NCBI GenBank assembly: GCA_003576755.1
Contig: QEVT01000002.1
Location: 346 to 64,345, forward strand
Direction of reading: 5' to 3'
DNA: 64,000 nt
DNA from: a bacterium
GTDB lineage: Bacteria; Chloroflexota; Anaerolineae; Epilineales; Epilineaceae
Positions 18,076 to 52,833 of this stretch are shown here, piece after piece. The translations under genes and the position numbers were made by a program. The stretch's first letter is position 1, and each line of letters begins with the position of its first letter. The notes under the pieces were generated by a model. That model did not search any database. It was not told the origin of the DNA and saw nothing but the letters and a program-made list of their open reading frames with translations.

Positions 18076-18495
18076 ATGCGCTTCAACGTCGAGCCGGCGA
18101 AGGCGTTCCTGGGTGTCGGGTGGGCGTTCCCGCCCGGCCTCGAAGCCGATGGCACCATCGCCGAGGCGGCCTACGACGAGGACATCCGTCAGGCCATCCG
18201 GATCATCATGTTCACCAATCGCGGCGAGCGCGTGATGCGGCCGGACTTCGGCGCGGGCCTCAAGGACTTCGTCTTCGAGCCGGTCAACACGTCGACCCTT
18301 GCCGCGGTGCAGACACGGGTGCAGGACGCGCTGACCATCTGGGAACCGCGGATCGACGTCCTGTCGGTGCAGGTCGCGACGGACCCGGCGGAGCGCAACA
18401 CGCTGAACATCCATGTCACCTACCGCGTGCGGGTCACCAACACCGTAGAGAACCTGGTCTATCCGTTCTATCTCGAAGAAGGAAGGCCGGCGTGA
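18076..18495 (+). CDS. Baseplate wedge protein gpW/gp25-like (Afp9)
   Basis: GVGWAFPP...IRQAIRIIMFTNRGERVMRPDFGAGLKDFVFEP...ALTIWEPRI is the GPW_gp25 lysozyme-like fold signature. Confidence 0.9.
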   Translation: MRFNVEPAKAFLGVGWAFPPGLEADGTIAEAAYDEDIRQAIRIIMFTNRGERVMRPDFGAGLKDFVFEPVNTSTLAAVQTRVQDALTIWEPRIDVLSVQVATDPAERNTLNIHVTYRVRVTNTVENLVYPFYLEEGRPA

Positions 18496-21938: not shown

Positions 21939-21940
21939 TC

Positions 21941-36204: not shown

Positions 36205-36527
36205 GATGTGTTCCTGGGTGTGAGGAGGCCGTGTGAGATATGCGTAGGTCGAGCGCGATCGACGGTGCGGCACGTGCTTGCCGCCGGGCGAGGCACAGGA
36301 TGGCCACAACGTAGGGCGAAGCTTGCCAACCTGTATTGTGGGTGTGAAGTGTCTGTGTCACTGTCTCTTCAATGTCTCTTCGGGCGTCTGCGGCCCACCT
36401 AAACCCTGTGTATCGCCTTGTAGCCGTCGCCGGATTGACAATTGTCGCGGCAAGCCTTCATCATTCCGCCTCGTCAAGCCACTCGGCGCGATGGCGAGCA
36501 CGTCATCCTTCTCACAAGGCGATCGCG

Positions 36528-38510
36528 ATGCGAGTCCTGATCCGAACGTACGACTTCGACGATCTCGGCGGCAGCGGGGCGTCCATGCGCACCGTCGCCG
36601 ACTTCCTCCAGGCGTGCGGCGACGAGACTTGGGCCCCACGCGGCCGCGAGACGCTCGAAAGGCTGCGCGCGTGGTCGCCGGGCGTCGTCTTGGGCCAGCA
36701 GTGGGCGACGGAAGAGGCCAGTATGTGGGCGATCGCCTTGGGCGTTCCCTTTGTGATGTTCGTCCGCGGGCCCGGACAGTACGAGCACTTCATGCCTCAA
36801 TGCGATCTGGTTGTGTTCAACGCTTCGTCGCAGCTCGAACTCGCCCTTCCGGCCATTGGAAGGACGCCGGCCGCGGTGCTCCATCCGCCGGTCCTGCCGG
36901 CAGACTACGCCACCGACGGCGGCGGATCGCACATCACGCTCATTGGAACGGGCGCGCTCAAGGGTGCCGATCGATTCCTGACACTGGCACGGAAATTCCC
37001 AGACCATCCCTTCCTGTGGGTAACCGACGAACCTTCGGAAGCACCTCCTTCCAACGTAGAAGTGTGCCCGAGGACACCGAACATGCGGTCGATCTACGCC
37101 CGCACCAAGCTGCTCGTGATGCCATCGCGAAGCGAATCCTACGGCCGCGTTGCCATCGAAGCGGCCATGAGCGGCATTCCGGTCGTGGCATCGGACCTGC
37201 CGGGCATCCGCGAAGCGACGGCCGGGCACGCGGTCTTGGTCGCGGACGAGCGGGAATGGGTGACCGCAGTACGGAACGTGCTTGCGAACATCGAGCCGCA
37301 TCGCCGCGCGGCGCTTGCGTTGGCGGCGCTCCGTGACCCCTCGGTCGAGCTCGAGGCCCTCCGCAGCCGACTCCAGGCCTTGGTCGATGCCGGCCGCCGT
37401 CGGCCGACGCTGTCGCTGTGTATGACGGTCGCCAACGAGGCGGCGACGCTGGCCAAGGCCGTCGCGTCGGTGCGGGAAGTCGTCGACGAGGTGATCATCG
37501 GCGTCGATACGCGCTCGTCGGACGACACGGCGGCCATCGCGCGCACGCTGGCCACGGATTACTTCGAGTACACCGAATCGAGCCCGCCCGACTTCCGGCG
37601 GATGCGCAACCGCGCCATGGAGCGGGTACCAACCGACTGGGCCATCGTGTTGGATGGCCACGAGTGGATCGAGAACGCCCACCTGATCCGCCCGGCGCTC
37701 GAAACGACGGCTTGGTCCATCGAGATCCGAACGCTGTTCGAGCCCGACGCGAACCGCATCCCGGGTCTCTCGTTCCCCTTCCCGCGCATCCATCGGCGCC
37801 ATGTACGGTTCGTCGGCGCGGCCGTGCACGAGGAGGTCTCGACGCCCGTCGCGCGCCGGTCACGACAGATCGACATCCGTGTCTGGCACGAGCGCAAGCC
37901 GGGCTCCGCCGCGACGACCCGCGGCGCCGAAAAGTCGGGCGCCGAGCTGGACGTGCTCCGGGCGGCATGGCAAGAGCGCAACGACCGCCGCGCGTTGTTC
38001 TACCTGGCCAACGGTCTGCGGGAGTCGGGGCGACTGGAAGATGCGGTCGAGGCATATTCAACCTACCTGGAGGCGCCGAACTTTGAGGAGGAGGGCTGGC
38101 AGGCCAGGCTGTATCTCGCCCGCTGCCACGCGGCCCGCCAAGCTTGGCCCGCGGCGAAGCAGTGCTTCGAGCAGGCGATCCTGGCGTGGCCGGAACGGGC
38201 CGAAGCCGTTATCGGCCTCGGGCATGTGCTCTTGGCGAAGGGAGAAGCGCGTCACGCGGCAGCATGGTTCCGCATGGCGGCCGGGTTGCCTGAACCGTCG
38301 GACTGTCGCCTCTTCGTCGAAGTGCCGGCCTATCGGTGGCAGGCCTGGCACGGCCTGGCGCTGGCACTGGACCGGCTTGGTGACTACGCCGGAGCGCTCG
38401 AGGCCGAGACGGAAGCCAAGGCCCGCGGCGCTGGTGCGTGGGCGGATGTGAACATCGGACGGTGGCGCGCGCTGTCGGGACATGGGACGGGAAACGGGGC
38501 GGGAAGCTGA
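36528..38510 (+). CDS. Three-module glycosyltransferase: GT4 (GT-B) + GT2 (GT-A) + C-terminal TPR repeats
   Basis: The GT4 C-terminal motif is LLVMPSRSESYGRVAIEAAMSGIPVVASDLPGIREA. The GT2 motif is LSLCMTVANEAATLAKAVASVREVVDEVIIGVDTRSSDDTAAIA. The TPR-like tail is ALFYLANGLRESGRLEDAVEAYSTYLE...ARLYLARCH...GLGHVLLAKGEARHAAAWF. The start is taken at MRVLIRTYDF. Confidence 0.8.
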   Translation: MRVLIRTYDFDDLGGSGASMRTVADFLQACGDETWAPRGRETLERLRAWSPGVVLGQQWATEEASMWAIALGVPFVMFVRGPGQYEHFMPQCDLVVFNASSQLELALPAIGRTPAAVLHPPVLPADYATDGGGSHITLIGTGALKGADRFLTLARKFPDHPFLWVTDEPSEAPPSNVEVCPRTPNMRSIYARTKLLVMPSRSESYGRVAIEAAMSGIPVVASDLPGIREATAGHAVLVADEREWVTAVRNVLANIEPHRRAALALAALRDPSVELEALRSRLQALVDAGRRRPTLSLCMTVANEAATLAKAVASVREVVDEVIIGVDTRSSDDTAAIARTLATDYFEYTESSPPDFRRMRNRAMERVPTDWAIVLDGHEWIENAHLIRPALETTAWSIEIRTLFEPDANRIPGLSFPFPRIHRRHVRFVGAAVHEEVSTPVARRSRQIDIRVWHERKPGSAATTRGAEKSGAELDVLRAAWQERNDRRALFYLANGLRESGRLEDAVEAYSTYLEAPNFEEEGWQARLYLARCHAARQAWPAAKQCFEQAILAWPERAEAVIGLGHVLLAKGEARHAAAWFRMAAGLPEPSDCRLFVEVPAYRWQAWHGLALALDRLGDYAGALEAETEAKARGAGAWADVNIGRWRALSGHGTGNGAGS

Positions 38511-42046: not shown

Positions 42047-42469
42047 TCACGGTGCCTCAACAGCTGCAGGCTCCGCGGTGGTCGTCGGGCAGGGGGTGGG
42101 CGATCGCTTGTCCAAGCTCCCGGACGCCAACATCTTGCCATTCGGGCTGAACGCCACACTCCAGATCACCGCGCTATGACCCCGTGGAGGTCGGCCCAGG
42201 CCCTGCTGGCTGGTCACATCCCTGAGGATGATCGTGTCAACCAAACTTCTTGACGCCAGGATCTTGCCGTCTGGGCTGACTACCGCGTTCCCAACCCCGT
42301 TGATGTGGCCCGTCAGTAGATGACCGAGGCGCTGCCGACTGAACACATCCCACAAGATGATCGTGTCAGTCGAGCTCAAGCGATCTGCAGAGCGGGGTGC
42401 CGCGACATCACGCACTTTCTTCACCCCTTCGCCCTGTCCTCGTGCTCTCGAACAGACACTGCGCCTCAC
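42047..42469 (-). pseudogene. WD40-repeat protein remnant (about 2.5 repeats, no N-terminal domains)
   Basis: TIILWDVFSRQRLGHLLTGHINGVGNAVVSPDGKILASRSLVDTIILRDVTSQQGLGRPPRGHSAVIWSVAFSPNGKMLASGSLDK are canonical WD40 units. The first ~40 codons are junk and abut the GH25 stop codon. Confidence 0.55.
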
Positions 42470-43642
42470 TCACCCGTCGTCAGACCGCGGCCGCTTGCGC
42501 CGCTCAGCCGCCCGCATCGCCGAGCCGCTCCTCGCCCCGGCGATATCGAGACTCCGCGCGCCATCTTCGACCGCGAGGAAGCGCCGGCCGCCGACCTGCA
42601 TCGCCGTCCACTGGCCTGGCGCCCAGCGCACCCAGGCATCGCTGCCGCCAACTTCGAGGACATCGACCCCATCGTCGCGCTTCAGCACCCCGGTTTTCTC
42701 GAAGTCAGGGCCGGGGCCGCGGTGGACGTTCAGGTTGGCGGCGAGCACCCGGCCGAGCACCTGGCCGTCGGGCGCGACCTCGATCCGGCAAAGCGGCCCG
42801 CTGGGGACCGAGCAGGTCGCCCAGCGATCCTCGCCGACCCGAATCCAGGCATCAGTGCCGCCGACATCGTGGACGGGCAGCCTCCGCCCCAGATCCACGT
42901 CCGTGAGCATCGCCACTTTGTCGTGCTTGATGCTCGGTCCGGTGCGGACGTTGACCGGCGCCTCGACGCGCACCAACAAGCGCGGTGCGACGCGTGCGGG
43001 CGCCGGAGCGCCGCCGGCATAGGCCAGGAAATCCGCCTCGGTGCCGGGAAACCGGTTCACGTCCGCATTGCCATCGATGCCCGGCACCATCTCCTGGCTG
43101 GTGAACTGCCAGAAGCGGTAGGTGCTCCAGTCCAGCGGGAGTCGCGGTTGGCCAGCCTCGGTGTAGTGGGCCACCCATAGATCGTGCTTAGACCAGCGCT
43201 CCGAACGCTCGAGGTTCGTGTTCCAGAAGCTGCCTGCCGTGTAGATGATCGGCCGCTTGTGCCCGGCGGCCTCCAGCCGGTCGAGGCAGCCCAGCGTCCA
43301 CTCCGTCCAGGCCGCCCGCGACATCGGGGCGCCGTCGCCCGGCGTGGGATCGTTCTCGACATCCAGCGCCAGCGGCATTCCCGGCTTCCGGTCGCCCAGC
43401 ACCTCGAGCATGAGATCGACCTGCCTGTCGACCGGATCTGAGGTGCGCATGAAGTGGTACGCCGAAAGCACGAGGCCCGCCGCCTCCGCACCGGCCCAGT
43501 GCTCCGCGAAGCGCCGGTCCTTCCGGTGGCTGCCGTAGGTCGTCCGTACAAACGCGTAGCGGTAGCCCACCGCGGCCACCCGCTGCCAATCGATCGGCTT
43601 CTGGTGGTGCGATACGTCGATGCCCAACACGTGATCCGCCAT
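42470..43642 (-). CDS. GH25 muramidase (lysozyme) with two C-terminal SH3b-like domains; endolysin architecture, no signal peptide
   Basis: The RBS AAGGAGG (reverse complement of cctcctt) precedes ATG 43642. LGIDVSHHQKPIDWQRVAAVGYRYAFVRTTYG...SAYHFMR is the GH25 signature. The C-terminal repeats are VNVRTGPS...WIRV and LNVHRGPG...DAWVRW. Confidence 0.85.
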   Translation of the reverse strand: MADHVLGIDVSHHQKPIDWQRVAAVGYRYAFVRTTYGSHRKDRRFAEHWAGAEAAGLVLSAYHFMRTSDPVDRQVDLMLEVLGDRKPGMPLALDVENDPTPGDGAPMSRAAWTEWTLGCLDRLEAAGHKRPIIYTAGSFWNTNLERSERWSKHDLWVAHYTEAGQPRLPLDWSTYRFWQFTSQEMVPGIDGNADVNRFPGTEADFLAYAGGAPAPARVAPRLLVRVEAPVNVRTGPSIKHDKVAMLTDVDLGRRLPVHDVGGTDAWIRVGEDRWATCSVPSGPLCRIEVAPDGQVLGRVLAANLNVHRGPGPDFEKTGVLKRDDGVDVLEVGGSDAWVRWAPGQWTAMQVGGRRFLAVEDGARSLDIAGARSGSAMRAAERRKRPRSDDG

Positions 43643-43878
43643 GACTGACTGCCTCCTTGTTTCTGGGTGAGCTCGCGACTCAGCGAATACTTGATTCACT
43701 TGAACTCCTGACATCCCTCACCCGAAGAGCGACGAATGTATCAAGTCAGTGTCCTTCACCTTTGCCAAATACCCACCCCTTTCCGGGCCCGCCGTCGCCG
43801 CCCGGAGACAGACGACCGACGACATCGTCCGTCGCTTCCATGACGAACCCGGGCGTGCGACGGATACGCAGGGCCACC

Positions 43879-44076: not shown

Positions 44077-44719
44077 ATGCAGGTGTGCCGGGCGACGGGG
44101 CAGGTCGACGAGGTACTGGAGAGTTGGCAGAACCTCGCGCTGCCCGAGTGCCGTTGCCTGATCCTGGATGCCCGCTACGGGAAGATCCTCACGGACGGCC
44201 AGATCCGCGACGGGGCGGTCTTGATTGCCAAAAGGGTAACGGCACAAGGCAAGCGCTCGGTCTTTGGGGGCGTGGGTTTCGCTCAGCGAGCACGAGGTCC
44301 ACTGGCGGCAGTTCCTCCAGAGCCCGGTGGCGCGAGGCCTGCGCGGACAGTCGTGGATCTTCAGCGATGATCACGCCGGCTTGGGCGCGGCCCGCAAGGC
44401 CGTGTTCGGCGGTGTCCCCTGGCAGCGTTGCCAGTTTCACCTCCAGCAGAATGCCACGGCCTACGTCCCGCGCTTGGAGCAGCGCCCCGAGGTCGCCTCC
44501 AGCATTCGCGCCGTGTTCAATGCCCCCGATCGCACCGAGGCCGAGGCTCGCCTGAAGCGATCGATCGACACGTATGCCACCTCAGCCTCCAAGCTCGCCG
44601 CCTGGATGGAGTCCAACCTCCACGACGGTCTGACCGTTTTTCCGTGCCTATCATACCTTCTCGGATTGGATCTGCCGTCAACGCGACACTCCCATCAGGA
44701 GCCCGCATCATCCAATTAA
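44077..44719 (+). pseudogene. IS256-family (Mutator-type) transposase remnant, frameshifted and truncated at both ends
   Basis: Frame 1 reads LILDARYGKILTDGQIRDGAVLIA. Frame 2 reads SEHEVHWRQFLQSPVARGLRGQSWIFSDDHAGLGAARKAVFGGVPWQRCQFHLQQNA...AVFNAPDRTEAEARL. These are IS256 core motifs split across frames near 44270-44370. Confidence 0.6.
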
Positions 44720-45005: not shown

Positions 45006-47114
45006 ATGCGCGAAGCCATGGTTTCCCGAATCGTTGACCCGCTGACGTTCGACCTGCACATCTCACGACAGGCGGGCGATCAGTATCGCGCTGTAGCGCG
45101 CGCTCTCGGGGGTGAGTTTGAGTCCGACGTGTTCACGCTTCCCCTCACGATACGAGATTGGGTTGGAGCTTCGAGCGGGCATCATAGGGTTCGAGACTTT
45201 ACGGCCAGGTCACCTGCCGAAACGCTGCAGCCCGCTGCGATCGGGGCAAGCCTCTTCAAGACCGTGTTTTCGGGCAGGGTACTGTCCGGATACGACCAGT
45301 GCGTCATCTCGGCGATGCGTGACGATGTGCGGTTGCGCATCTGTTTGCACTTGAACAGAAGTGCACCGGAGATCATGTACTGGCCGTGGGAGTGCCTCCG
45401 CAACGAAGAGGTGAACCGCAGCCTCGCACTTTCGGAGTACTGCTCGATCGTACGGGTTCCGGCAATTGCCGAAGCGATACGTCCTCGGCTGAAGGTGCGC
45501 TCGCCCCTTAAGGTGCTGGTCATGATCGCTAATCCGAAGGGGGTCGCAGCGCTGAACAGCAACGAGGAGTGGGATCAACTTCACGAGGCCACCTCGGATC
45601 TTGTCGACCGTGGCCTGATGGCTTACACCAGACTCGATTCCGCCACACTGCCGACTCTGGCCAAAGCTCTGGATTCAGACAACTTTCACATCCTTCATTA
45701 CATCGGCCATGGCGCGTTCGATGCTCGAACCGGTCAGGCCGACTTGGTCTTGGATCGCGGAGACGGATCGCACCGCTTGATCAGCGGTGACGAGCTCTAC
45801 CCACTCCTGGACAGGAGCCGCTCTCTTCGCTTGCTCGTGCTCAACTCATGCAAGGGTGCCGTAGGTGCGCCGCACGACGCATTCAGCGGTATCGCCCAGA
45901 AGGCAATGCAGGCGGGGCTGCCGGCGGTCGTGGCGATGCAGGACGTGATCTCCGACCGCGCCGCGATCACCTTCGCGAGAGGGCTGTACGGCGGGATAGC
46001 CAGCGGCTTGACCATCGATGGGGCGGTAACCAAGGGTCGGACTGCCATCGTACACGAGCACGATGACTCCGTTGAGTGGGCAGTGCCGGTGCTCTACATG
46101 AGGGATCAAGACGGGCGGCTGTTCGATATGTCCGGTCTTGACGAAGGTGTCAGCGCCACCGCATCGAAGTCGGATCCACGCCCGGAACCGCCGATTGGCG
46201 TGATAGAACGGCTCTTCCGCAGCGGACAAATCGTTCCATTTCTGGGGCCTTTGGCATCTGCCGCACCGACATCGACCGCTCCGGTGGCTACCGAATCCCA
46301 GGATGAGGTGCCGAGTCGGCGAGACCTTGCTTATCGCCTGGCCGATTCGGCATCCTTCCCGGACAAGGACCCACACAGTCGCGGCGATCTCGCCCAGGTC
46401 GCTGCGTACTACGCCGACTTCAACGGGAGGCGTGGCCTGCGGGCGGAGCTGAGGGACGTCTTCCGCCGTACGTATGCCGTGCAACACATCCACCGGCTCT
46501 TGGCGGCGTCCGCGCAGCCGTTGCTGGTCGTGACCACGAACTACGATACGCTCATCGAGCAGGCCTTTCGCGAGGCCGGGCATGATTACGATCTCGTGGT
46601 GTACCCTACCGATCGCAAGGATCTTGCTAACGCGGTGTTGTGGTGGACACCCGGCGCCGCTGAGCCGGAGGCAGTCGCTCCCAACGAGTTGCTTGTTCCC
46701 CTGAACGAGCGCAGCACGATCTTCAAGATGCACGGCTCAGTGGACTTGTCCACAGAGAAGTTCGACTCGTTCGTGGTTACGGAGGACGACAACGTCGAGT
46801 TTCTAGCCCGAGTCAACAGCAACACCGCTGTACCGGCTCAGTTCCTCGATCACTGCCGCGATCGGTCGCTCTTGTTCCTCGGCTGCAGCATTGACGACTG
46901 GCACCTGCGCATCATGCTCAAAGCGTGGAGCCGCCACGTCGAACAGCGCCGCCGCGATGCCAATGCCGACACCATCTCGTCCTGGGCCGTACAGCCCAAG
47001 ACCGGCCTGTCCGAGATCGGCTTGTGGCAACGCTGCCAGGTACAGCCGTTCGATCTGTCCGTCGATGCGTTCGCGGACGCCTTGGCGCGCCGAACAAACG
47101 CCTCGGCCCCATGA
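45006..47114 (+). CDS. CHAT (caspase-like) protease domain fused to a SIR2-like (SIR2_2/ThsA-type) domain
   Basis: CHAT: FHILHYIGHGAF (His codon 45708-45710) and LRLLVLNSCKG (Cys codon 45849-45851), then LPAVVAMQDVISD. SIR2-like: LLVVTTNYDTLIEQAF, IFKMHGSVD, FVVTEDDNVEFL, LLFLGCSIDDWHLRIMLK. The start could be 45006 or 45018. Confidence 0.8.
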   Translation: MREAMVSRIVDPLTFDLHISRQAGDQYRAVARALGGEFESDVFTLPLTIRDWVGASSGHHRVRDFTARSPAETLQPAAIGASLFKTVFSGRVLSGYDQCVISAMRDDVRLRICLHLNRSAPEIMYWPWECLRNEEVNRSLALSEYCSIVRVPAIAEAIRPRLKVRSPLKVLVMIANPKGVAALNSNEEWDQLHEATSDLVDRGLMAYTRLDSATLPTLAKALDSDNFHILHYIGHGAFDARTGQADLVLDRGDGSHRLISGDELYPLLDRSRSLRLLVLNSCKGAVGAPHDAFSGIAQKAMQAGLPAVVAMQDVISDRAAITFARGLYGGIASGLTIDGAVTKGRTAIVHEHDDSVEWAVPVLYMRDQDGRLFDMSGLDEGVSATASKSDPRPEPPIGVIERLFRSGQIVPFLGPLASAAPTSTAPVATESQDEVPSRRDLAYRLADSASFPDKDPHSRGDLAQVAAYYADFNGRRGLRAELRDVFRRTYAVQHIHRLLAASAQPLLVVTTNYDTLIEQAFREAGHDYDLVVYPTDRKDLANAVLWWTPGAAEPEAVAPNELLVPLNERSTIFKMHGSVDLSTEKFDSFVVTEDDNVEFLARVNSNTAVPAQFLDHCRDRSLLFLGCSIDDWHLRIMLKAWSRHVEQRRRDANADTISSWAVQPKTGLSEIGLWQRCQVQPFDLSVDAFADALARRTNASAP

Positions 47115-50100
47115 CCCGGCCATTATGCCCCTACGTCGGCCTCCAACCGTTCACGGAAACGGAACGGGGGTATTTCTTCGGCCGCGAGCGCGAGATCCGT
47201 CTGATCACGGCCAACATGCGCGTCGCTCCGCTGACGGTCCTTTACGGGCACAGCGGTGTTGGCAAGAGCTCGGTGCTCCGTGCCGGCGTCATCCCGGCGC
47301 TTCAGGCACGAGCCCAAACGGCGGTGGTTTACGTCAACGACTGGCGCAGCGACCAGTCCCTCGATGCGCTCAAGCTGGCTTGTGCGGAGGCAGTGGCGGC
47401 ACTTCCCGGCGGCGCCGGTGTTCCCTCCGCAGCAGCGATCGATCTCCCGCTCGACGTCCTCTTGCTCATGTTGTCCGATCGAGGGCGCTTCGAGTTGTTC
47501 ATTGTCCTGGATCAGTTCGAAGACTGGCTGACCTATCGCCCTGCGGAAACTGTGGCTACGACCTTTGACGAAGAGCTGGCGCGCGTCATCAACCGACGGG
47601 ATCCGCACATCGCGATGTTGCTGGCAGTGCGCGCCGACGCGCTGTTCCGCCTCGACCGCTATCGGACACGTATTCCTCGCCTGCTCGAGAACTCACTCCG
47701 GCTGCGGCATCTCAGCGCTGAGGCCGCGGAGAGGGCAATTCGCCAGCCGCTAGCCGTCCACAATGCTCACAACAACGTGCCGATCGCCATCGACGACGCC
47801 GTTGTCGACGCCGTGATCGGCGATGTCACCGCCGCCGAGTTCCGGTTGGGCGAACACATGGAGCGAAGCGTCGACCCCAGCGCGGCCCGTGTCGTCGAGG
47901 CACCGCTCCTGCAGCTCGTGATGACGCGGCTATGGGATGTGGAGGTGGGCGCGGGCTCGACGACGCTACGACTGGAGACGTATGAACGACTCGGGCGCTC
48001 CGTGCAGATCGCCGAGAGCCACCTGGACCACAGCTTGACAGCGTTGCCTGAGCCCGAGCAAGCACTATGCGCCGACATGTTCCAGTGGCTGGTGACCCCG
48101 TCTGGCCACAAGATCGCCCAAACGCTGAGGGATCTGTCCGCTTATAGTGGTAGGCCCGAACCGGACGTGAGCAACCTATTGGCCAAGCTGGGCGATGCGC
48201 GCATCCTCAGGGCCTTGCCGCCGGTTCTGGACGCACGCGGGGAGCGCTACGAGCTCTTTCACGACGTTCTGGCGTCGGGAGTGTTGAGTTGGCGGCACCG
48301 GTTTCTCGCGGCGCAACAGTCCGAGCGGGTGCGTCGCGAGACTGAGGAACGCTTGGCCGAGGAGCGTCGGCAGCGCTGGAAGCGTCGGTTGGACCGGGTT
48401 TATCGCGCCGGTGTTGCGGCGCTCGTCGGCCTGGTGGCATTGGGCATTGCCATCGGCATCGAGCGCGAAGTGCACATCCGGGCCCAGTGGCACGAGCTGA
48501 ACGGACCGCCGGGCGGCACCATCGCCCCGCTGGCGATAGATCCGCAAGTTCCAAATCGGCTATATGTGGCGCTGTATGGCCGCGACGGAGGCGTGTATCG
48601 CACGGACGACGGCGGCCAGTCGTGGGCGCGGCTCCCAGTCGGGCTCGGCCAGAACGTCGCAATGGCCCTGGCTATCGACCCGCGAGATCCGGCGCGCATG
48701 TACCTGGGCACCGCCGGCAACGGGGTGATCGGGACGGTCGACGGCGGCGCGACGTGGTCGCCGTTGAACGATGGGTTGTTCAACCTCAACGTGCTCGATC
48801 TCATGCTGGCAGCAGATGACCCGGAACACATTTTGGTCGTAGCGTACGGAGGGGGCGGCGGTCTGTTCTCCAGCCGTGACCACGGCGAACACTGGTACCG
48901 GGTCAACGACGTCGATACGCAGCAGGCCTTCCGGCTCGTCAGTAGCCCGCGCGATGCCGGCGAGGTCACGGTGTTGTCCGAGCGAGGTGTTTTCCGGTCG
49001 ACGGATGGTGGGACGAGGTTCTACTTGCTCGAAAGCCCCGATGTCCCTTCCGACATCGTGAGAGACTGGGCCGTCGGCAGCGACGGAACGCGGTATGCCA
49101 TTGTGCGCGATGGGAAGTTGTCCCGGAAATCGGTGCACGATCAGGAATGGGTTGACATCCTCCTTCCTGACCGCGATGATTATGGTATTCGGGTGTGGGC
49201 AGACACCCGCAACGAGGGTTGGCTGTACACAGCAGTCCGCTCGGCGTTGGGTTCGACTGCGCTTCTAACGAGTCGGGCGACTGGGCGGATGGGGTCATGG
49301 CAGTCTGCGGGCAACGAGATCGGCCGGACGCCGGGCATTGAACTGCTGACGGACCCCCACCATCCACGCCGGGTGTACTACGGCACCAGCGGCGGGCTCT
49401 ACCACAGCAATGATGGAATGACTGGTTGGGCGCCCATCAGCACCACGCTGGCCAAGTCAACGGTGGGGGCGATCCTTGCGGATCCCGTGGATGGCAAGCG
49501 GATCTGGGCTTCGGTCGAGGGCGGTGTGTATCGAAGCGACAATGGCGGCATCCTGTGGTCGCCGGTGGTCGACGGCCTGTACGCTGCGGCCGTACGCACG
49601 CTGGCCATCAATCCACGCGACCATCGGGACGTGTTTGCCGGTGTATATCGTCCGGGTAACGTGGAATCGATCTTCCGGTTTCACGATGGCGCCGGCCACA
49701 GGGCGTGGACCGGAAGCGCCAACGGGAGCAAGAACGACGATACTCGGGCGCTGCTGTTCCGACCTTCCTCTGTCACGACGATGAGCTTGTTTGCAGGCAC
49801 CTTTGGTAGTGGTGTTTGGCACACTCATGATGGCCACAACTGGGAGGCTCGAAACCAGGGGTTGGCGCGCCTGGATGTGGTTGACCTAGCCGGCGATGCT
49901 CTGAGCGCTGAGACCCTCTATGCCGCCACCGGTGGCGGCGTCTATCGCAGTCAAGACGGCGGCATCAGTTGGATGGCATTCAACGACGGTCTTGAAGATC
50001 TTCAAGTCCATGCGATCGCCGCTGATCAATGGCGCTCGGAGACGGTGTTCGCCGGCACTGCCCGCGGACTGTTCGTATCGCACCAAGGCCGACCGTGGAG

Positions 50101-50371
50101 GCCAGCCAATAATGGCGTGGATCGGACGAACGTCATCGTCGTTCAGCCGGACCCGCGCCAAGCCGACGTAATCTACATTGCAACAGACACGGGCGGAGTC
50201 TACCGGAGTGACGACGGTGGCGAACGTTGGGTTCCGATCTCCCAGACGGCGACCACGTACGCGATCAATTCGCTCACTGTCCCGTTTTCCGGGAGGTATG
50301 CGCTCCTCGCAGGGGCGGCCGAGGCGGGAGTGCACGGCTGGGTGCGACGTTATGCATGGCAAGACCCTTAG
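47111..50371 (+). CDS. STAND-class P-loop NTPase + single TM helix + C-terminal Asp-box (BNR/sortilin/Ycf48-like) beta-propeller
   Basis: ATG at 47111 overlaps the upstream TGA (ATGA). The N-terminus is CPYVGLQPFTETERGYFFGREREI, the Walker A is LYGHSGVGKSSVL and the Walker B is LFIVLDQFEDWL. The hydrophobic helix is AGVAALVGLVALGIAIGI (about nt 48407-48463). About 9-10 S/T-x-D-x-G-x-x-W motifs follow, for example YRTDDGGQSWARL, GTVDGGATWSPL and YRSDDGGERWVPI. Confidence 0.8.
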   Translation: MTRPLCPYVGLQPFTETERGYFFGREREIRLITANMRVAPLTVLYGHSGVGKSSVLRAGVIPALQARAQTAVVYVNDWRSDQSLDALKLACAEAVAALPGGAGVPSAAAIDLPLDVLLLMLSDRGRFELFIVLDQFEDWLTYRPAETVATTFDEELARVINRRDPHIAMLLAVRADALFRLDRYRTRIPRLLENSLRLRHLSAEAAERAIRQPLAVHNAHNNVPIAIDDAVVDAVIGDVTAAEFRLGEHMERSVDPSAARVVEAPLLQLVMTRLWDVEVGAGSTTLRLETYERLGRSVQIAESHLDHSLTALPEPEQALCADMFQWLVTPSGHKIAQTLRDLSAYSGRPEPDVSNLLAKLGDARILRALPPVLDARGERYELFHDVLASGVLSWRHRFLAAQQSERVRRETEERLAEERRQRWKRRLDRVYRAGVAALVGLVALGIAIGIEREVHIRAQWHELNGPPGGTIAPLAIDPQVPNRLYVALYGRDGGVYRTDDGGQSWARLPVGLGQNVAMALAIDPRDPARMYLGTAGNGVIGTVDGGATWSPLNDGLFNLNVLDLMLAADDPEHILVVAYGGGGGLFSSRDHGEHWYRVNDVDTQQAFRLVSSPRDAGEVTVLSERGVFRSTDGGTRFYLLESPDVPSDIVRDWAVGSDGTRYAIVRDGKLSRKSVHDQEWVDILLPDRDDYGIRVWADTRNEGWLYTAVRSALGSTALLTSRATGRMGSWQSAGNEIGRTPGIELLTDPHHPRRVYYGTSGGLYHSNDGMTGWAPISTTLAKSTVGAILADPVDGKRIWASVEGGVYRSDNGGILWSPVVDGLYAAAVRTLAINPRDHRDVFAGVYRPGNVESIFRFHDGAGHRAWTGSANGSKNDDTRALLFRPSSVTTMSLFAGTFGSGVWHTHDGHNWEARNQGLARLDVVDLAGDALSAETLYAATGGGVYRSQDGGISWMAFNDGLEDLQVHAIAADQWRSETVFAGTARGLFVSHQGRPWRPANNGVDRTNVIVVQPDPRQADVIYIATDTGGVYRSDDGGERWVPISQTATTYAINSLTVPFSGRYALLAGAAEAGVHGWVRRYAWQDP

Positions 50372-51868
50372 CATTATAATTGTAGTTTGTAACAAATGCC
50401 GTCGGACATGCAAGGAGGACGACGGCAATGGACCAGATCGAGGTTTGGCAGGCGGGACTGTATGATCTGCTGGCGCGGATGAGCGGGGTGTTCGCCAACA
50501 GGGTAGGACTTGCGCGACTGGGGTTGTACGCGCGGGAACTGCTGGGGCCGGCGGAGTGCAAGAACGGCTGGCAGTTAGCAGAAGAGGCAGGAGAGGCAAC
50601 GCCGTGCGCGATGCAGCAGTTCCTGTTTCGAGGCAACTGGTTTGCGGACGAGCTCAGTCGGGACATGCGACGGTACATCATCGGAGGTTTGGCGACCCGA
50701 TGGGGGTCTTGGTGATCGACGAAACGGGCATTCTCAAGAAGGGAGCCCACTCTATGGGAGTGCGGCGACAATACAGCGGGACGGCAGGGTGGGTGGAGAA
50801 TTGCCAGATCGCGGTGTTGTTGGGCTATGCAACTGCGAAAGGGCGGGCGTTGTTGGATCGGGCGCTGTACCTGCCCAAGAGTTGGGCGGATGACCGAGCC
50901 CGACGCGCCAAGGTCGGTGTGCCGGAGACAGTCGCGTTCAAGACGAAACCGGCCTTGGCGTGGGCGATGGTGGAGCGAGCGCTCGACGAAGGCGTGCCCG
51001 CGAGGCGGGTGGCTGGCGACAGTATCTACGGCGACGATCCGCAGCTCCGTCGCAGCCTGGAAGGTCGACACATTGGCTACGTCATGGCGACCAGCCACAA
51101 CGATGCACGTGTCCCGATCAGCAGGCGTACGCGAGCGCTCTGCGACGTCGTCGCGGGACTCAAGAACGATGACTGGCAGAGCCTGAGCGCGGGCGATTGG
51201 AGCCAAGGACCCCGGTTGTGCGACTGGCAACTGGTGACGCCGTCGACCTCTCTCCTCCCAGCGTGGCGCCGCGGCAACCTCGTCCAGCGCAGCGTCAGTG
51301 ACCCCGCCGAGAGCAAGGTCCACCGTTGCTTCTTTCCAGTGGAAACGTCGCTGGCCACCCCTGTCCGCGTCGCGGGCAGCCGCTGGACAATCGAGACGGA
51401 CATCGAAGAAGCGAAGGGCGAGGTCGGTCTCGACCACTACGAAATGAGGAGCTGGGATGGTTGGCATCGGCACATCAGCCTGGCTCCACTGGCCCACGCC
51501 TTTCTCTCTGTCACCGAAGCGACCAATCACGCGGCGGACTCAGCCGCGACAATAGGGGGGTCCATGCATCGCTGCCAGACACAGTCGATAACGGCGTTCA
51601 AGGTCGGTCGGGGTCTCTTGTGCCCCTGAGCATCCCCGATATCCGGCGTCTGCTTCGTCAGATCCTGTTCACGGTCATCCACCCCGCCGAATGGGTCATC
51701 GCCTGGTCCCGCTGGTGGCGCCGCCACCAAGCCATCGCCCAACGGCACCATCGCTGCTGTCGCACTCTAAGCAGAGGGAACACTACTGTACTTGCCCGTA
51801 CCCAATCGATAGCGCCGATCGTCACTAGTTCTTGCCTCTATCACTTACAGATCATAATCACGGAGTGA
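50372..51868 (+). mobile_element. IS701-family-like insertion sequence (about 1.5 kb), boundaries approximate
   Basis: It carries a DDE transposase with IS701-type motifs. The imperfect terminal inverted repeats are CATTATAATTGTAGTTTGTAAC (50372-50393) and the reverse complement of 51838-51859 (GATTATGATCTGTAAGTGATAG). I found no clear target duplication. Confidence 0.5.
50428..51868 (+). pseudogene. IS701-family transposase split over three reading frames (two -1 frame changes, near 50690 and 51620)
   Basis: Frame a reads MDQIEVWQAGLYDLL...GWQLAEEAGEATPCAMQQFL. Frame b reads GVLVIDETGILKKGAHSMGVRRQYSGTAGWVENCQIAVLLGYA...GDSIYGDD...RWTIETDIEEAKGEVGLDHYEMRSWDGWHRH. Frame c reads IPDIRRLL...WSRWWRRHQAIAQRHH. 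Confidence 0.65.
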
Positions 51869-51873
51869 TCACG

Positions 51874-52833
51874 ATGAATCTGCGACCGATTGGCGAAGTT
51901 GAAGCGGATCGGACCCCGCAGGCAACGACGTGGAGCAGTTCGTACTCTGACTCCGAATCTGTGGAGGATCAAGGACGGCTTGACGCGATGAGGGGCGTCT
52001 CACGGCTTCAGAGAAGATTGGGGCACGACGTTGATGGTCAATCGACAGGACTCCTTGGTTGCCAGATGAGCGATACGTCGCATCGGACAGGATTGATGGC
52101 GACCGTCGTGATCACGGCAATGGCGACACTGTGGCTTGCCAACAACCCAAGCGCGGTGGTCGCCACTCGATTCTTCAGCGTACCGGAACCGAGATCAACG
52201 CGTTCCCCGAACGGCTACATCGGTCCTGAGGGCGGCACGTTCAATGGCGCCGCGCCCAAGCTCGTAGTCGATGTGTCACGGGGTTTTCTCCCCAATGGGG
52301 CGATCTTCTTCGCCTTCCCGACGGATCTCATCCCTGCAGGCACACAGGACGCCAACGGCACGCGCCTGATCGGACAGCCCCACTGCTTCAGCATCTGGGT
52401 CAACGGGCAGATGCCGGAGCAATACCATGCGCCGCTCCGGATTGTGCGTTCGCTGGCAGAGATCAGCCCCAGTCCATCGCTCTCGAATCACGAGCAGTCT
52501 ATGCTGCGATTGGCCTTCTTCGACGACCGAGAGCAGGCATGGTCCGTGATCGGCGGGCAAGACATGTCGAGACGAGGTTCATGGCACATTGAAGCGACGT
52601 TGACGCATCTCGTGCTCAGCCGGAGATGCGATCCCTCCAAGCCGCAGGTCCTCCTGGGCGTGGTACTGGAGTCTGGATCTCCCGCGTTCGATGTTGTGTC
52701 GTTGACAACCAGCCAGCGCGCCGGTTCGAGTCCCCCGCAACAACCGTTGGCCGCAGCGACGTCTGGCCCTCTACCAGCGTACAGGCCTGGCAATCGTGCG
52801 GGCGGAGCACGCGCGGCGATCCTGTTTGAGTAG
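51874..52833 (+). CDS. Hypothetical protein with one predicted membrane anchor; start uncertain (51874 or 52066)
   Basis: The open frame has a hydrophobic stretch GLMATVVITAMATLWLA, followed by a non-repetitive ~240-aa region. No motif is recognised. The 5' end of the ORF overlaps the IS end. Confidence 0.35.
   Translation: MNLRPIGEVEADRTPQATTWSSSYSDSESVEDQGRLDAMRGVSRLQRRLGHDVDGQSTGLLGCQMSDTSHRTGLMATVVITAMATLWLANNPSAVVATRFFSVPEPRSTRSPNGYIGPEGGTFNGAAPKLVVDVSRGFLPNGAIFFAFPTDLIPAGTQDANGTRLIGQPHCFSIWVNGQMPEQYHAPLRIVRSLAEISPSPSLSNHEQSMLRLAFFDDREQAWSVIGGQDMSRRGSWHIEATLTHLVLSRRCDPSKPQVLLGVVLESGSPAFDVVSLTTSQRAGSSPPQQPLAAATSGPLPAYRPGNRAGGARAAILFE

What the first reader, a model, noticed from the sequence alone, without database searches (positions are those of the whole stretch)
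45006..50371. Two-gene module: CHAT protease-SIR2 fusion translationally coupled to a STAND NTPase. This is the best candidate for an uncharacterised abortive-infection/conflict system
Gene 1 fuses a caspase-like CHAT domain to a ThsA/DSR-type SIR2 domain. The CHAT His/Cys dyad contexts are HYIGHG and LNSCKG. The SIR2 motifs are TTNYD ... KMHGS ... LGCS. This gives two different death or effector activities, proteolysis and NAD+ depletion, in one polypeptide. Its stop overlaps the start (ATGA at 47111) of a STAND P-loop NTPase with the PYxGLxxFxxxxxxxFFGRExE N-terminus, Walker A GHSGVGKSS and Walker B VLDQFED. Sensor-NTPase plus SIR2 logic is established for Avs, DSR and Thoeris-type systems, and CHAT proteases act as effectors in type III-E CRISPR. 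Computational surveys have also noted CHAT, SIR2 and TIR effectors with STAND NTPases in multicellular bacteria. I do not know of an experimentally characterised system with this exact CHAT-SIR2 + NTPase pairing. The module sits between IS debris and an IS701-like element and has its own promoter-like sequence, which is consistent with a mobile defence cassette.
Basis: partly seen in the sequence, partly recalled or inferred. Interest (0 to 1): 0.8.

Follow-up and report, generated by a model that had tools for sequence, protein, structure and literature searches.

The report
CHAT-SIR2 effector with membrane STAND NTPase
A Chloroflexi genome carries an uncharacterised operon: a membrane-anchored NLR-like ATPase, whose sensor probably faces outside the cell, is coupled to a cytoplasmic protein that fuses a caspase-like protease to an NAD-destroying enzyme; it is a rare variant of a widespread, untested SIR2 + nSTAND1 gene pair.

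Summary
Gene 1 (45006-47114) is CHAT + SIR2_2 with intact His/Cys and Asn/Asp/His residues. Gene 2 (47111-50371) is an nSTAND1 NTPase whose start overlaps the gene 1 stop (ATGA).

The interpretation needs three corrections.

1. The conserved unit is SIR2 + nSTAND1, not CHAT + NTPase. All 30 complete SIR2-bearing loci I fetched have nSTAND1 directly downstream. None of 58 CHAT-only loci does. Single-chain nSTAND1-HEAT-SIR2 fusions also exist. CHAT is an N-terminal add-on in about 11 lineages; DUF4062 is another add-on.

2. It places the BNR/sortilin-type propellers outside the cytoplasm.

3. The IS701-like element does not bound a cassette. It sits in the spacer between gene 2 and a conserved third gene (51874-52833). 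The promoter claim is not supported.

PADLOC has no model for the NTPase, and I found no paper on this pair.

Likely mechanism (inferred): an envelope-side signal drives NTPase oligomerisation, which activates the SIR2 NADase and the CHAT protease. Whether this serves phage defence is untested, and the annotated loci show no defence-island context.

Verdict: a new variant of a known kind. Interest 0.62.

The parts
45006..47114 (+). Gene 1: CHAT-SIR2 fusion protein (702 aa), predicted cytoplasmic effector
   Evidence: ORF. Pfam CHAT + SIR2_2. AF2 model with mean pLDDT 88.7 and pTM 0.70. No hydrophobic helix. An identical protein, P0001, occurs in independent metagenome assemblies.
45369..46091 (+). 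CHAT caspase-like protease domain (aa 122-362). Catalytic His235 = 45708-45710; Cys282 = 45849-45851
   Evidence: Pfam PF12770, 95.5 bits. The dyad is invariant in 9 of 9 fusions. Foldseek matches SAVED-CHAT 8tl0 (E 1e-9), DdvA 8rot and caspase-3/7.
46188..47111 (+). SIR2 half (aa 395-702; Pfam SIR2_2 at aa 507-666). Asn512 = 46539-46541; Asp514 = 46545-46547; His576 = 46731-46733
   Evidence: Pfam PF13289, 82.5 bits. PDB profile hits KomC, ThsA and DSR2, with His576 aligned to KomC His146. Foldseek hits KomC, ThsA, DSR2, Avs5 and SIR2-HerA. Catalytic residues are kept in 97-100% of 147 relatives.
47111..47114 (+). ATGA start/stop overlap of genes 1 and 2
   Evidence: Read directly. A 4-nt overlap or a gap of <=25 nt recurs in most of the 29 SIR2-nSTAND1 junctions measured.
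47111..50371 (+). Gene 2: nSTAND1 NTPase, then TM helix, then BNR/Sortilin-type propellers (1086 aa)
   Evidence: Pfam and NCBIfam. Identical to P0387, annotated 'hypothetical protein DCC79_00455 / Chloroflexi bacterium CFX...'. It aligns to residue 1084 with the 1114-aa homologue P0388, so the IS has not truncated it.
47129..48385 (+). nSTAND1 NTPase module (aa 7-425). Walker A = 47246-47272; Walker B IVLDQFED = 47501-47524
   Evidence: PF20703, 154.7 bits. Invariant G49, G51, K52, S54, D134, Q135, F136 and E137 in 23 partners.
48407..48463 (+). Predicted transmembrane helix AGVAALVGLVALGIAIGIE (aa 433-451), preceded by ERRQRWKRRLDRVYR
   Evidence: Kyte-Doolittle 19-residue mean 2.18. An equivalent helix is present in 23 of 23 partners. 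K+R in the flanks averages 5.9 (N side) against 3.2 (C side), N>C in 20 of 23, Wilcoxon p=2e-4.
48488..50368 (+). BNR/Asp-box, Sortilin-Vps10, Ycf48-like beta-propeller repeats (aa ~460-1086), predicted extracytoplasmic sensor
   Evidence: Pfam Sortilin-Vps10 (3e-20), BNR and PSII_BNR. NCBIfam F510_1955-type (1.8e-48) and Ycf48. The location follows from the single TM helix.
50373..51858 (+). IS701-like insertion (DDE_5 transposase ORF 50556-51629) sitting between gene 2 and gene 3
   Evidence: Pfam DDE_5, 5.7e-37. Imperfect terminal repeats ATTATAATTGTAG... / ...CTACAGATCATAAT were read by eye; the repeat tool did not call them.
51874..52833 (+). Gene 3: TM-anchored protein of unknown function, probably the original third gene of the operon
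   Evidence: 31% identity over 197 aa (E 6e-23) to the ORF that starts 9 nt after the closest NTPase homologue in L093. No Pfam, PADLOC or PDB match.
44264..44719 (+). Context only: Mutator-family transposase fragment upstream of gene 1
   Evidence: Pfam Transposase_mut, 1.2e-23, covering profile positions 198-321 of 379. The same arrangement occurs in metagenome contig L090.

Best explanation
Proposed mechanism. This is an NTPase-gated effector module of the STAND/NLR type, built around a membrane receptor.

1. Gene 2 is a single-pass membrane protein. Its nSTAND1 NTPase is in the cytoplasm and its BNR/sortilin-type beta-propellers are outside. (Domains are shown; topology is predicted.)
2. 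A ligand or envelope perturbation sensed by the propellers releases autoinhibition. The NTPase modules then oligomerise on the inner face of the membrane in an NTP-dependent way. (Inferred from STAND biology.)
3. The oligomer recruits and clusters the gene 1 product through its SIR2 domain, which is the part that co-occurs, co-evolves and fuses with nSTAND1. (Association is shown; contact is inferred.)
4. Clustering switches on the ThsA/KomC/DSR2/Avs5-type SIR2 NADase, which depletes NAD+. It also switches on the caspase-like CHAT protease fused to it. The result is growth arrest or death of the cell. (Inferred.)
5. CHAT is a second, add-on effector riding on the SIR2 docking module.
6. A small TM-anchored protein (gene 3) was probably co-transcribed and may act with the external sensor. 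In this genome an IS element now separates it from gene 2.

The trigger (phage at the envelope, a competitor toxin, non-kin contact, or wall damage) is unknown.
For: Domains and motifs:
- Both proteins have intact domains and motifs.
- The AF2 model of gene 1 is confident (pLDDT 88.7). Its SIR2 half matches NADase effectors that work as activated oligomers or filaments (KomC, ThsA, DSR2, Avs5, SIR2-HerA). Its CHAT half matches the activated SAVED-CHAT filament and caspases.

Linkage of SIR2 and nSTAND1:
- 30 of 31 SIR2-bearing ORFs across the window and 86 loci have nSTAND1 immediately downstream on the same strand. The one exception is cut by a contig end. None of 58 CHAT-only loci has nSTAND1.
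- Further examples: L087, L089, L093 and the P0392 contig.
- Reciprocal test: two NTPases picked only by NTPase similarity (P0455, P0391) both have SIR2 upstream.
- Rosetta-stone fusions: at least 8 single-chain nSTAND1-(HEAT)-SIR2 proteins.
- Identity matrices of SIR2 and NTPase correlate (r=0.74, Mantel p~5e-4).
- Junctions are mostly 4-nt overlaps or gaps of <=25 nt.

Topology:
- One strong hydrophobic helix follows the NTPase in 23 of 23 partners, with positive-inside bias.
- The single-chain fusions that carry SIR2 at the C-terminus lack the helix. This is as expected if the C-terminus of the two-gene forms is outside the cell.
- Close nSTAND1 relatives carry PASTA after the helix.
- The window's repeats are of the BNR/Sortilin/Ycf48 types.

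CHAT as an effector in its own right:
- The dyad is intact in 9 of 9 fusions.
- SIR2 catalytic residues are lost only in proteins with an extra N-terminal domain: 7 of 28 (2 CHAT fusions, 4 of the ~513-aa DUF4062-type forms, and the 470-aa P0201) against 0 of 120 standalone, Fisher p=4e-6.
- DUF4062 was reported as a TIR-like NADase (bioRxiv 10.64898/2026.05.01.722283).
- In L096 CHAT and its alpha/beta-hydrolase partner follow the SIR2-nSTAND1 pair as separate genes.
- Trypco1 or DUF7379 hydrolase genes precede CHAT-SIR2 in L007, L040, L047, L002 and L008. These are the peptidase companions described by Kaur et al. 2020 (PMC7159879).
Against: - No activity, interaction or phenotype has been measured. 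Every step after the domain assignments is inference.
- Topology rests on hydropathy and charge bias only. WD40, TPR and HEAT repeats, found in most partners, are more typical of cytosolic proteins.
- No adaptor domain explains SIR2-NTPase docking.
- In the loci with gene annotation, the neighbours are housekeeping genes rather than defence genes. An anti-phage role is therefore not indicated by context.
- In this genome an IS separates gene 3, and IS debris replaces whatever lay upstream. The local copy may be partly disabled.
- SIR2_2 proteins could in principle modify proteins rather than deplete NAD+.
Confidence: 0.55

Rival explanations
1. CHAT is not a second death effector. It is a processing or regulatory protease: once the NTPase assembles, it cleaves the CHAT-SIR2 linker (or another component) to release or activate the SIR2 NADase. 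Kaur et al. 2020 proposed this for N-terminal caspase domains with variable C-terminal effectors.
For: - The window's CHAT belongs to a family with a constant N-terminal CHAT and many different C-terminal domains, including CARDB, FGE-sulfatase, TPR, CBM9 and TonB_C. This matches the architecture for which autoproteolytic release was proposed (PMC7159879).
- A low-confidence linker (aa 381-389) separates the two domains in the AF2 model.
- Most SIR2 + nSTAND1 pairs work without CHAT.
Against: - Two CHAT fusions (P0004, L008) have lost the SIR2 catalytic His and/or Asn yet keep the CHAT dyad and the NTPase partner. Releasing a dead NADase makes little sense.
- In L096 CHAT is a separate 1204-aa protein.
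- Standalone SIR2 needs no processing.
Confidence: 0.2
2. The module is a transmembrane signalling receptor, not an immune or abortive-infection system. It would serve envelope stress sensing, development, or kin and contact recognition in a filamentous Chloroflexi bacterium. Its SIR2/CHAT output would be a regulated, possibly non-lethal response or developmental cell death.
For: - Predicted external sensor domains.
- The closest NTPase relatives include a large nSTAND1-Ser/Thr-kinase-multiTM family, plus FHA, histidine-kinase and PASTA fusions.
- Housekeeping neighbours and no defence islands in annotated loci.
- Absence from phage records and near-absence from plasmid records.
- nSTAND1 systems were linked statistically to multicellular bacteria (PMC8195603).
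Against: - The SIR2 subfamily's nearest sequence and structure relatives are all NADase defence effectors.
- Effector swapping and stacking (CHAT, DUF4062), tandem duplicated pairs (L015, L024) and variable sensor repeats are hallmarks of conflict systems.
- This rival differs from the best explanation in purpose rather than in mechanism.
Confidence: 0.25
3. The hydrophobic helix is only a membrane tether or is not membrane-spanning. The repeats would then be cytosolic and the system would work like Avs, sensing an intracellular phage protein.
For: - WD40, TPR and HEAT sensors are typical of cytosolic STAND proteins (PMC12803255).
- TM-less single-chain nSTAND1-HEAT-SIR2 versions exist, so cytosolic sensing occurs in the same family.
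Against: - The helix is present in 23 of 23 partners, with KD means of 1.9-3.3 and positive-inside bias.
- A single pass after a cytoplasmic NTPase forces the C-terminus outside.
- The window's repeats are BNR/Sortilin/Ycf48 types, and relatives carry PASTA.
- SIR2 is fused C-terminally only in the forms that lack the helix.
Confidence: 0.15
4. In this particular genome the locus is a decaying remnant. IS activity on both sides has removed its promoter or upstream partner and uncoupled gene 3, so it is no longer functional.
For: - A Transposase_mut fragment lies directly upstream and an IS701-like element directly downstream.
- No supported promoter.
- Gene 3 is separated by 1.5 kb of IS.
- An orphan WD40 fragment lies nearby at 42047-42469.
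Against: - Both long ORFs (702 and 1086 aa) are uninterrupted with all catalytic motifs intact.
- Gene 2 aligns to within 2 residues of its end with a homologue.
- The identical proteins recur in several independent assemblies.
Confidence: 0.1

Closest known systems
Avs5 / AVAST type 5 (SIR2-STAND, e.g. EfAvs5, PDB 9jap, 9nc9)
   Same: A SIR2 NADase effector controlled by a STAND NTPase with a C-terminal sensor. The SIR2 fold matches (Foldseek E 6e-9). Activation by oligomer or filament formation is the expected logic.
   Different: - Avs5 is one cytosolic polypeptide with SIR2 N-terminal to a different STAND clade.
- Here there are two translationally coupled genes, an nSTAND1-clade NTPase, a TM helix with predicted external repeats, and an extra CHAT protease.
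- The NCBIfam Avs5 model scores 16 bits against a cut-off of 1000.
nSTAND1 conflict systems of Kaur, Iyer, Burroughs & Aravind 2021 (PMC8195603): effector/EAD - nSTAND1 - FGS lectin
   Same: The same NTPase family (Pfam PF20703). The same idea of an NTPase switch coupling a variable sensor to swappable effectors, including caspase and NAD+-targeting domains.
   Different: - The described forms are single proteins with N-terminal effectors or EAD adaptors and a C-terminal FGS/C-type-lectin domain.
- Here the effector is a separate upstream gene with no EAD.
- The sensor is a BNR propeller (WD40/TPR/HEAT in relatives) behind a TM helix.
- The specific SIR2 partnership is not mentioned in the text I read.
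SIR2 NADase effectors ThsA (Thoeris), KomC (Kongming), DSR2, SIR2-HerA
   Same: Best sequence and structure matches of the SIR2 half. The catalytic Asn/His are conserved, and His576 aligns to KomC His146.
   Different: No SLOG/STALD domain, no TIR, KomA/B or HerA partner, and no DSR2-type sensor. PADLOC ThsA models match only positions ~56-129 of 478. Control is by an NTPase rather than by a small-molecule signal or tail-tube binding.
Caspase-centred conflict modules of Kaur et al. 2020 (PMC7159879): EACC1-caspase pairs, alpha/beta-hydrolase-caspase and Trypco pairings
   Same: An N-terminal caspase/CHAT domain with a variable C-terminal domain. Relatives of gene 1 have Trypco1 or a DUF7379 alpha/beta-hydrolase immediately upstream.
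   Different: No EACC1, Trypco1 or hydrolase gene is present in the window. The partner here is an nSTAND1 NTPase, which CHAT-only family members lack.
CHAT proteases of CRISPR-linked systems (SAVED-CHAT, PDB 8tl0; TPR-CHAT/Craspase)
   Same: The caspase-like fold and His-Cys dyad. The closest solved CHAT structure is 8tl0.
   Different: No SAVED or TPR sensor domain, and no CRISPR-Cas or cyclic-oligonucleotide genes adjacent. Activation is presumably by NTPase-driven proximity.
Apaf-1 apoptosome / bacterial caspase-STAND-WD40 proteins (PMC12803255)
   Same: A STAND NTPase plus a beta-propeller sensor that controls a caspase-family protease.
   Different: The protease is on a separate protein fused to SIR2. 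The NTPase clade is different. The propeller is predicted to lie outside the cytoplasm.

Membership tests
CHAT caspase-like protease (Pfam PF12770) | Profile match above the gathering score | tested here: met
   95.5 bits against a cut-off of 24, aa 122-362.
CHAT caspase-like protease (Pfam PF12770) | Catalytic His-Cys dyad and caspase/hemoglobinase fold | tested here: met
   His235 (GHG) and Cys282 (NxCxGA) are invariant in 9 of 9 fusions. The AF2 model matches 8tl0 and caspase-3/7.
SIR2_2 NADase-type SIR2 (Pfam PF13289; ThsA/DSR/KomC kind) | Profile match above the gathering score, and fold | tested here: met
   82.5 bits against a cut-off of 24.5. Foldseek matches KomC, ThsA and DSR2 at E 1e-11 to 1e-9.
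SIR2_2 NADase-type SIR2 (Pfam PF13289; ThsA/DSR/KomC kind) | Catalytic Asn and His (ThsA N112/H152, KomC H146 equivalents) | tested here: met
   Asn512, Asp514 and His576 are present. His576 aligns to KomC His146. They are kept in 143-147 of 147 relatives.
SIR2_2 NADase-type SIR2 (Pfam PF13289; ThsA/DSR/KomC kind) | NAD+ hydrolase activity | not testable with these tools
   Needs biochemistry.
nSTAND1 NTPase (Pfam PF20703) | Profile match above the gathering score, with intact Walker A/B | tested here: met
   154.7 bits against a cut-off of 27.1. GxxGxGKS and DQFE are invariant in 23 homologues.
SIR2 + nSTAND1 two-gene family (defined here) | SIR2 gene directly upstream of, and co-oriented with, an nSTAND1-TM-repeat gene | tested here: met
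   Window junction ATGA. The same layout occurs in 30 of 31 SIR2 ORFs and in reciprocal look-ups.
Avs5 / AVAST type 5 | NCBIfam NF041814 equivalog score | tested here: not met
   16.4 bits against a cut-off of 1000, local match at aa 566-631 only.
Avs5 / AVAST type 5 | SIR2, STAND NTPase and sensor in one cytosolic polypeptide | tested here: not met
   Two genes. A TM helix follows the NTPase.
Thoeris | ThsA with a C-terminal SLOG/STALD domain and an adjacent ThsB TIR gene | tested here: not met
   The PADLOC ThsA match is restricted to the SIR2 part (HMM positions 56-129 of 478). There is no TIR among the flanking ORFs.
EACC1-caspase two-gene system (Kaur 2020) | A 5' gene encoding the single-TM EACC1 protein next to the caspase gene | tested here: inconclusive
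   The upstream region is IS debris. ORFs of >=25 aa there show no TM protein, and the two larger ones have no EACC1 hit. An ancestral gene could have been deleted.
Trypco1 / alpha/beta-hydrolase - caspase pairing (Kaur 2020) | A Trypco1 or alpha/beta-hydrolase gene adjacent to the caspase gene | tested here: not met
   tblastn with Trypco1 and DUF7379 proteins from L007, L029, L047, L002 and L008 finds nothing in the window (best E 0.59). They are present in relatives.
Any system typed in PADLOC-DB v2.0.0 | System-specific models matching the component proteins | tested here: not met
   Gene 1 gives only partial SIR2 or CHAT domain hits. Gene 2 gives no real hit. The same holds for 23 partners and for standalone, DUF4062-fused and NTPase-fused relatives. 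DefenseFinder was not available.
SAVED-CHAT / Craspase (CRISPR-associated CHAT) | SAVED or TPR sensor fused to CHAT, and a CRISPR-Cas context | tested here: not met
   The PADLOC SAVED_CHAT match covers only the CHAT part (positions 130-286 of 498). None of the ORFs scanned with Pfam in this window is a cas gene. I ran no dedicated CRISPR or cas search.

The most novel reading that the evidence does not exclude
The SIR2 + nSTAND1 family, of which this CHAT-SIR2 locus is a stacked-effector variant, may be a widespread class of transmembrane NLR-like receptors. They would sense something outside the cytoplasmic membrane (an adsorbing phage, a competitor's weapon, non-kin cells or wall damage). 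They would transmit this across the membrane to an NTPase switch that unleashes NAD+ depletion and caspase-like proteolysis inside. That would be an 'outside-in' death-receptor pathway in bacteria, with the SIR2 fold doubling as the docking adaptor on which other effectors (CHAT, DUF4062/TIR-like) are mounted.
Probability: 0.35. Interest if true: 0.85.

Novelty: new variant of a known kind. Interest (0 to 1): 0.62.

Why it matters
- Characterised bacterial STAND/NLR-like immune proteins (Avs1-5, bNACHT) are cytosolic sensors of phage proteins. As far as I recall, no member has been shown experimentally to sense across the membrane; I did not survey this, and a periplasmic sensor domain has already been predicted computationally for a NACHT-type protein (PMC10907252).
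- This locus leads to a large untested family: 178 clusters at 50% identity at E<=1e-30, and more than 870 clusters at 90% identity. In it an NTPase of a clade with no solved structure by sequence search is membrane-anchored and obligatorily paired with a SIR2 NADase.
- If the predicted topology and coupling hold, the family would add an extracytoplasmic sensing mode to bacterial NLR-like immunity or programmed cell death.
- It would also show how a catalytic domain (SIR2) can serve as an adaptor for stacking further effectors.
- It gives a concrete test case for the role of caspase-like CHAT domains next to NADases.
- Cultured carriers exist (Variovorax sp. J22P240, L071; Aromatoleum diolicum 22Lin, L077), which makes experiments feasible.

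Tried and rejected
- PADLOC and NCBIfam typing: only partial domain hits, so this is not a typed system.
- EACC1, Trypco1 or alpha/beta-hydrolase partner in the window: none found.
- Promoter claim: the scan did not call it, and the count is at shuffle level.
- IS terminal repeats by tool: the repeat finder gave only chance-like pairs. I read the imperfect ends by eye and found no clear target-site duplication.
- Truncation of gene 2 by the IS: rejected, because gene 2 aligns to residue 1084 of 1086 with P0388.
- A generally conserved secreted protein downstream of the NTPase: about 7-8 of 20 loci have a TM or signal-bearing downstream ORF. That is not clearly above background. Only the window-L093 pair is homologous.
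- Mobile-element carriage: one partial plasmid hit and no phage hit.
- PDB by sequence for the NTPase and for gene 3: nothing significant.
- Monophyly of the CHAT fusions:
  - Eight fusions cluster together on SIR2 and NTPase, but the window's pair is nearer to standalone-SIR2 pairs.
  - The CHAT halves do not separate from CHAT-only proteins.
  - So the number of fusion events is unresolved, though probably >=2.
- AF2 of the DUF4062-SIR2 form P0130: only moderate quality (pLDDT 74). I did not use it further, because Pfam already identified DUF4062.
- Literature: no paper with 'CHAT-SIR2'. The 4 papers listed (of 5 matching) for nSTAND1 do not describe the SIR2 pairing.

Full report
OBSERVATION

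Both genes exist as described.

Gene 1 (45006-47114, 702 aa) has Pfam CHAT (aa 122-362, 95.5 bits) and SIR2_2 (aa 507-666, 82.5 bits). Gene 2 (47111-50371, 1086 aa) has Pfam nSTAND1 (aa 7-425, 154.7 bits). The ATGA overlap at 47111-47114 is in the sequence.

The CHAT dyad (His235, Cys282) is invariant in all nine CHAT-SIR2 fusions I aligned. The SIR2 residues Asn512, Asp514 and His576 are kept in 143, 147 and 143 of 147 relatives. His576 aligns with the catalytic His146 of the KomC NADase. The Walker A and B residues of gene 2 are invariant in 23 homologues.

An AlphaFold2 model of gene 1 is confident (mean pLDDT 88.7, pTM 0.70). Its SIR2 half matches KomC, ThsA, DSR2, Avs5 and SIR2-HerA. Its CHAT half matches the activated SAVED-CHAT filament, DdvA and caspase-3/7.

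The window comes from a Chloroflexi metagenome-assembled genome. Gene 2 is 100% identical to a protein annotated 'DCC79_00455 [bacterium] / Chloroflexi bacterium CFX...' on a 64,447-nt contig.

After the NTPase comes a strongly hydrophobic 19-residue segment (aa 433-451, AGVAALVGLVALGIAIGIE). It is preceded by ERRQRWKRRLDRVYR.

The remaining ~630 residues are BNR/Asp-box, Sortilin-Vps10 and Ycf48-like propeller repeats.

IS THE PAIR CONSERVED, AND WHAT IS THE CONSERVED UNIT?

CHAT+SIR2_2 fusions are rare among homologues. In every case looked up, the next gene is an nSTAND1 NTPase.

A scan of one genome per GTDB species returned 80 loci. I searched these loci, the six fetched earlier (L001-L006) and the window with local profiles for the CHAT half, the SIR2 half and the NTPase. 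The result was clear-cut:
- 30 of 31 ORFs that carry the SIR2 half have nSTAND1 directly downstream on the same strand. This holds whether SIR2 is fused to CHAT or stands alone (~315-340 aa). The one exception runs off its contig.
- None of 58 CHAT-only loci has nSTAND1.
- Junctions are mostly 4-nt overlaps or gaps of <=25 nt.

The SIR2 half of gene 1 is closest to standalone SIR2 proteins (up to 49% identity). There are 873 clusters at 90% identity at E<1e-5. An exhaustive search gives 178 clusters at 50% identity at E<=1e-30.

Further evidence for the coupling:
- More look-ups (a 513-aa form in Thiotrichales and a 316-aa form on a 9.5-Mb chromosome) again show nSTAND1-WD40 downstream.
- Two NTPases chosen only for NTPase similarity both have SIR2 upstream.
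- The long hits in the exhaustive search are single-chain nSTAND1-(HEAT)-SIR2 proteins. This is a Rosetta-stone fusion.
- Identity matrices of SIR2 and NTPase across 27 pairs correlate (r=0.74, Mantel p~5e-4).

The conserved core is therefore SIR2 + nSTAND1. CHAT is an N-terminal addition found in about 11 lineages. Another addition is DUF4062 (16 of 18 of the ~513-aa forms), recently reported as a TIR-like NADase (bioRxiv 10.64898/2026.05.01.722283).

TOPOLOGY

All 23 NTPase partners are nSTAND1. Eleven carry WD40 propellers; others carry TPR or HEAT/ARM repeats.

All 23 have one strong hydrophobic helix right after the NTPase. The flanks show positive-inside bias: K+R averages 5.9 on the N side against 3.2 on the C side, N>C in 20 of 23, p=2e-4.

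The single-chain fusions with a C-terminal SIR2 lack this helix. That fits the idea that the C-terminus of the two-gene forms is outside, where an NAD+-dependent enzyme could not work.

Among the 118 closest NTPase homologues the NTPase is always N-terminal, and 72 have the helix. Most of the rest are nSTAND1-kinase proteins that end in a multi-pass membrane domain. Two carry PASTA after the helix.

I conclude, as a prediction, that the repeats are extracytoplasmic.

ROLE OF CHAT

The dyad is intact in 9 of 9 fusions. SIR2 catalytic residues are lost only in proteins that have an extra N-terminal domain: 7 of 28 against 0 of 120 standalone, Fisher p=4e-6. The seven include the CHAT fusions P0004 and L008. 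This suggests two things: the SIR2 fold is also the part that docks to the NTPase, and the added domain can take over as the effector.

CHAT also brings its usual companions from the conflict-system toolkit of Kaur et al. 2020:
- Trypco1 lies upstream in L007, L040 and L047.
- A DUF7379 alpha/beta-hydrolase lies upstream in L002 and L008.
- In L096 the order is SIR2 - nSTAND1 - DUF7379 - CHAT as separate genes.

None of these companions is in the window.

Eight other CHAT-SIR2 pairs cluster together on both SIR2 and NTPase. The window's pair lies nearer to standalone-SIR2 pairs, which suggests an independent fusion. The CHAT halves do not resolve this.

LOCAL CONTEXT

A Mutator-type transposase fragment lies upstream of gene 1. 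An IS701-like element (DDE_5) lies downstream of gene 2.

The IS ends, read by eye, are about 50373 and 51858. Gene 2 is not truncated.

Sixteen nucleotides beyond the IS starts an ORF (51874-52833) for a TM-anchored protein. It is homologous (31% identity over 197 aa, E 6e-23) to the ORF that starts 9 nt after the closest NTPase homologue in L093. The IS therefore sits inside a probable three-gene operon rather than bounding a cassette.

Homologous modules lie next to housekeeping genes: gyrB and uvrD in one case; hfq, tmk, holB and ffh in another. The module is nearly absent from plasmid records and absent from phage records. The promoter-like sequence is not supported.

MECHANISM (INFERRED)

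An external signal is sensed by the propellers. This drives NTP-dependent oligomerisation of the cytoplasmic nSTAND1 modules. The oligomer clusters the CHAT-SIR2 protein through its SIR2 domain. The NADase and the protease are then activated, and the cell stops growing or dies.

What is shown: the domains, motifs, synteny, fusions and co-variation. What is predicted: the topology. What is inferred by analogy with Avs5, ThsA, KomC, DSR2 and SAVED-CHAT: the coupling, the activation and the outcome.

Rivals considered:
- CHAT is a processing protease.
- The module is a non-immune signalling receptor.
- The helix is only a tether and sensing is cytosolic.
- This local copy is decaying.

COMPARISON AND NOVELTY

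The logic 'STAND NTPase controls SIR2' is known from Avs5. However, the Avs5 model is not met (16 bits against a cut-off of 1000), and the architecture differs.

The nSTAND1 clade and caspase-with-variable-tail proteins were described computationally (PMC8195603, PMC7159879). The text I read does not describe the SIR2 pairing or the TM topology. A periplasmic sensor was predicted for one NACHT-type protein in PMC10907252.

PADLOC has no model for the NTPase. No paper in the library mentions a CHAT-SIR2 fusion.

I rate this a new variant of a known kind. It is interesting mainly because it opens a large, untested family of membrane-anchored NLR-like receptors.

Noticed in passing
window 1537-28475: A full extracellular contractile injection system (eCIS) locus. 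It has two eCIS_core/DUF4157 proteins (1537-6246; 8465-9958, the latter with PG_binding_1 + CHAP), an AAA+ ATPase with a winged-helix domain (6306-8528), a tail sheath (11005-13152), two Baseplate_J proteins (18120-21938; 21512-24166) and an NHL + Tail_P2_I protein (26196-28475).
   Followed up: no
window 50373-51858 and 51874-52833: The IS701-like element sits in the short spacer between the NTPase gene and a conserved downstream gene for a TM-anchored protein of unknown function. A homologue of that gene lies 9 nt after the NTPase in L093. The gene has no Pfam, PADLOC or PDB match.
   Followed up: partly
window 42047-42469 (-) and 42470-43714 (-): An orphan 139-aa WD40-repeat fragment lies next to a GH25 muramidase with an SH3_3 domain. 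The WD40 piece could be debris of another STAND-type gene.
   Followed up: no
window 36372-38510: A 712-aa glycosyltransferase (GT1 + GT2 + TPR) with a weak match to 'GT4-conflict', the family 4 glycosyltransferase of conflict systems.
   Followed up: no
L015 5995-12933; L024 5602-12906: Two SIR2 + nSTAND1 pairs in tandem in the same locus (Pyrinomonadaceae and Gemmatimonadaceae MAGs). This pattern is typical of diversifying receptor families.
   Followed up: no
L011 6979-8397 (also L013): A 472-aa multi-pass membrane protein with a long low-complexity Thr/Pro/Ala region is inserted between the SIR2 and nSTAND1 genes.
   Followed up: no
L096/L097 3070-9857: Four consecutive genes: SIR2 (309 aa), nSTAND1 (618 aa, weak pYEATS match), DUF7379 alpha/beta-hydrolase (618 aa) and CHAT (1204 aa). 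This is the unfused counterpart of the window's CHAT-SIR2 arrangement.
   Followed up: partly
P0130, P0139, P0173, P0180, P0184, P0201 (alignment A4); L087, L094: DUF4062 (TIR-like NADase)-SIR2 fusions of ~513 aa, also paired with nSTAND1-WD40. Four of the ~513-aa forms (P0139, P0173, P0180, P0184) and the 470-aa P0201 have lost the SIR2 catalytic Asn or His.
   Followed up: partly
P0427-P0504 (one search list): Among the closest NTPase relatives is a large family of ~885-897-aa proteins: nSTAND1, then a Ser/Thr kinase, then a multi-pass membrane domain. Rarer are nSTAND1 fusions to FHA, histidine-kinase and PASTA domains.
   Followed up: no
L090 3337-5120: A low-coverage (2.5x) metagenome contig carries the same locus as the window, but the NTPase is split into two ORFs. 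This is probably an assembly error rather than a real frameshift.
   Followed up: no
L003 9262-11138; P0392 contig 7441-8301: SH3_3-domain proteins with signal or lipoprotein-like N-termini lie directly downstream of the NTPase gene in two CHAT-SIR2 loci. They are not homologous to the window's gene 3.
   Followed up: partly
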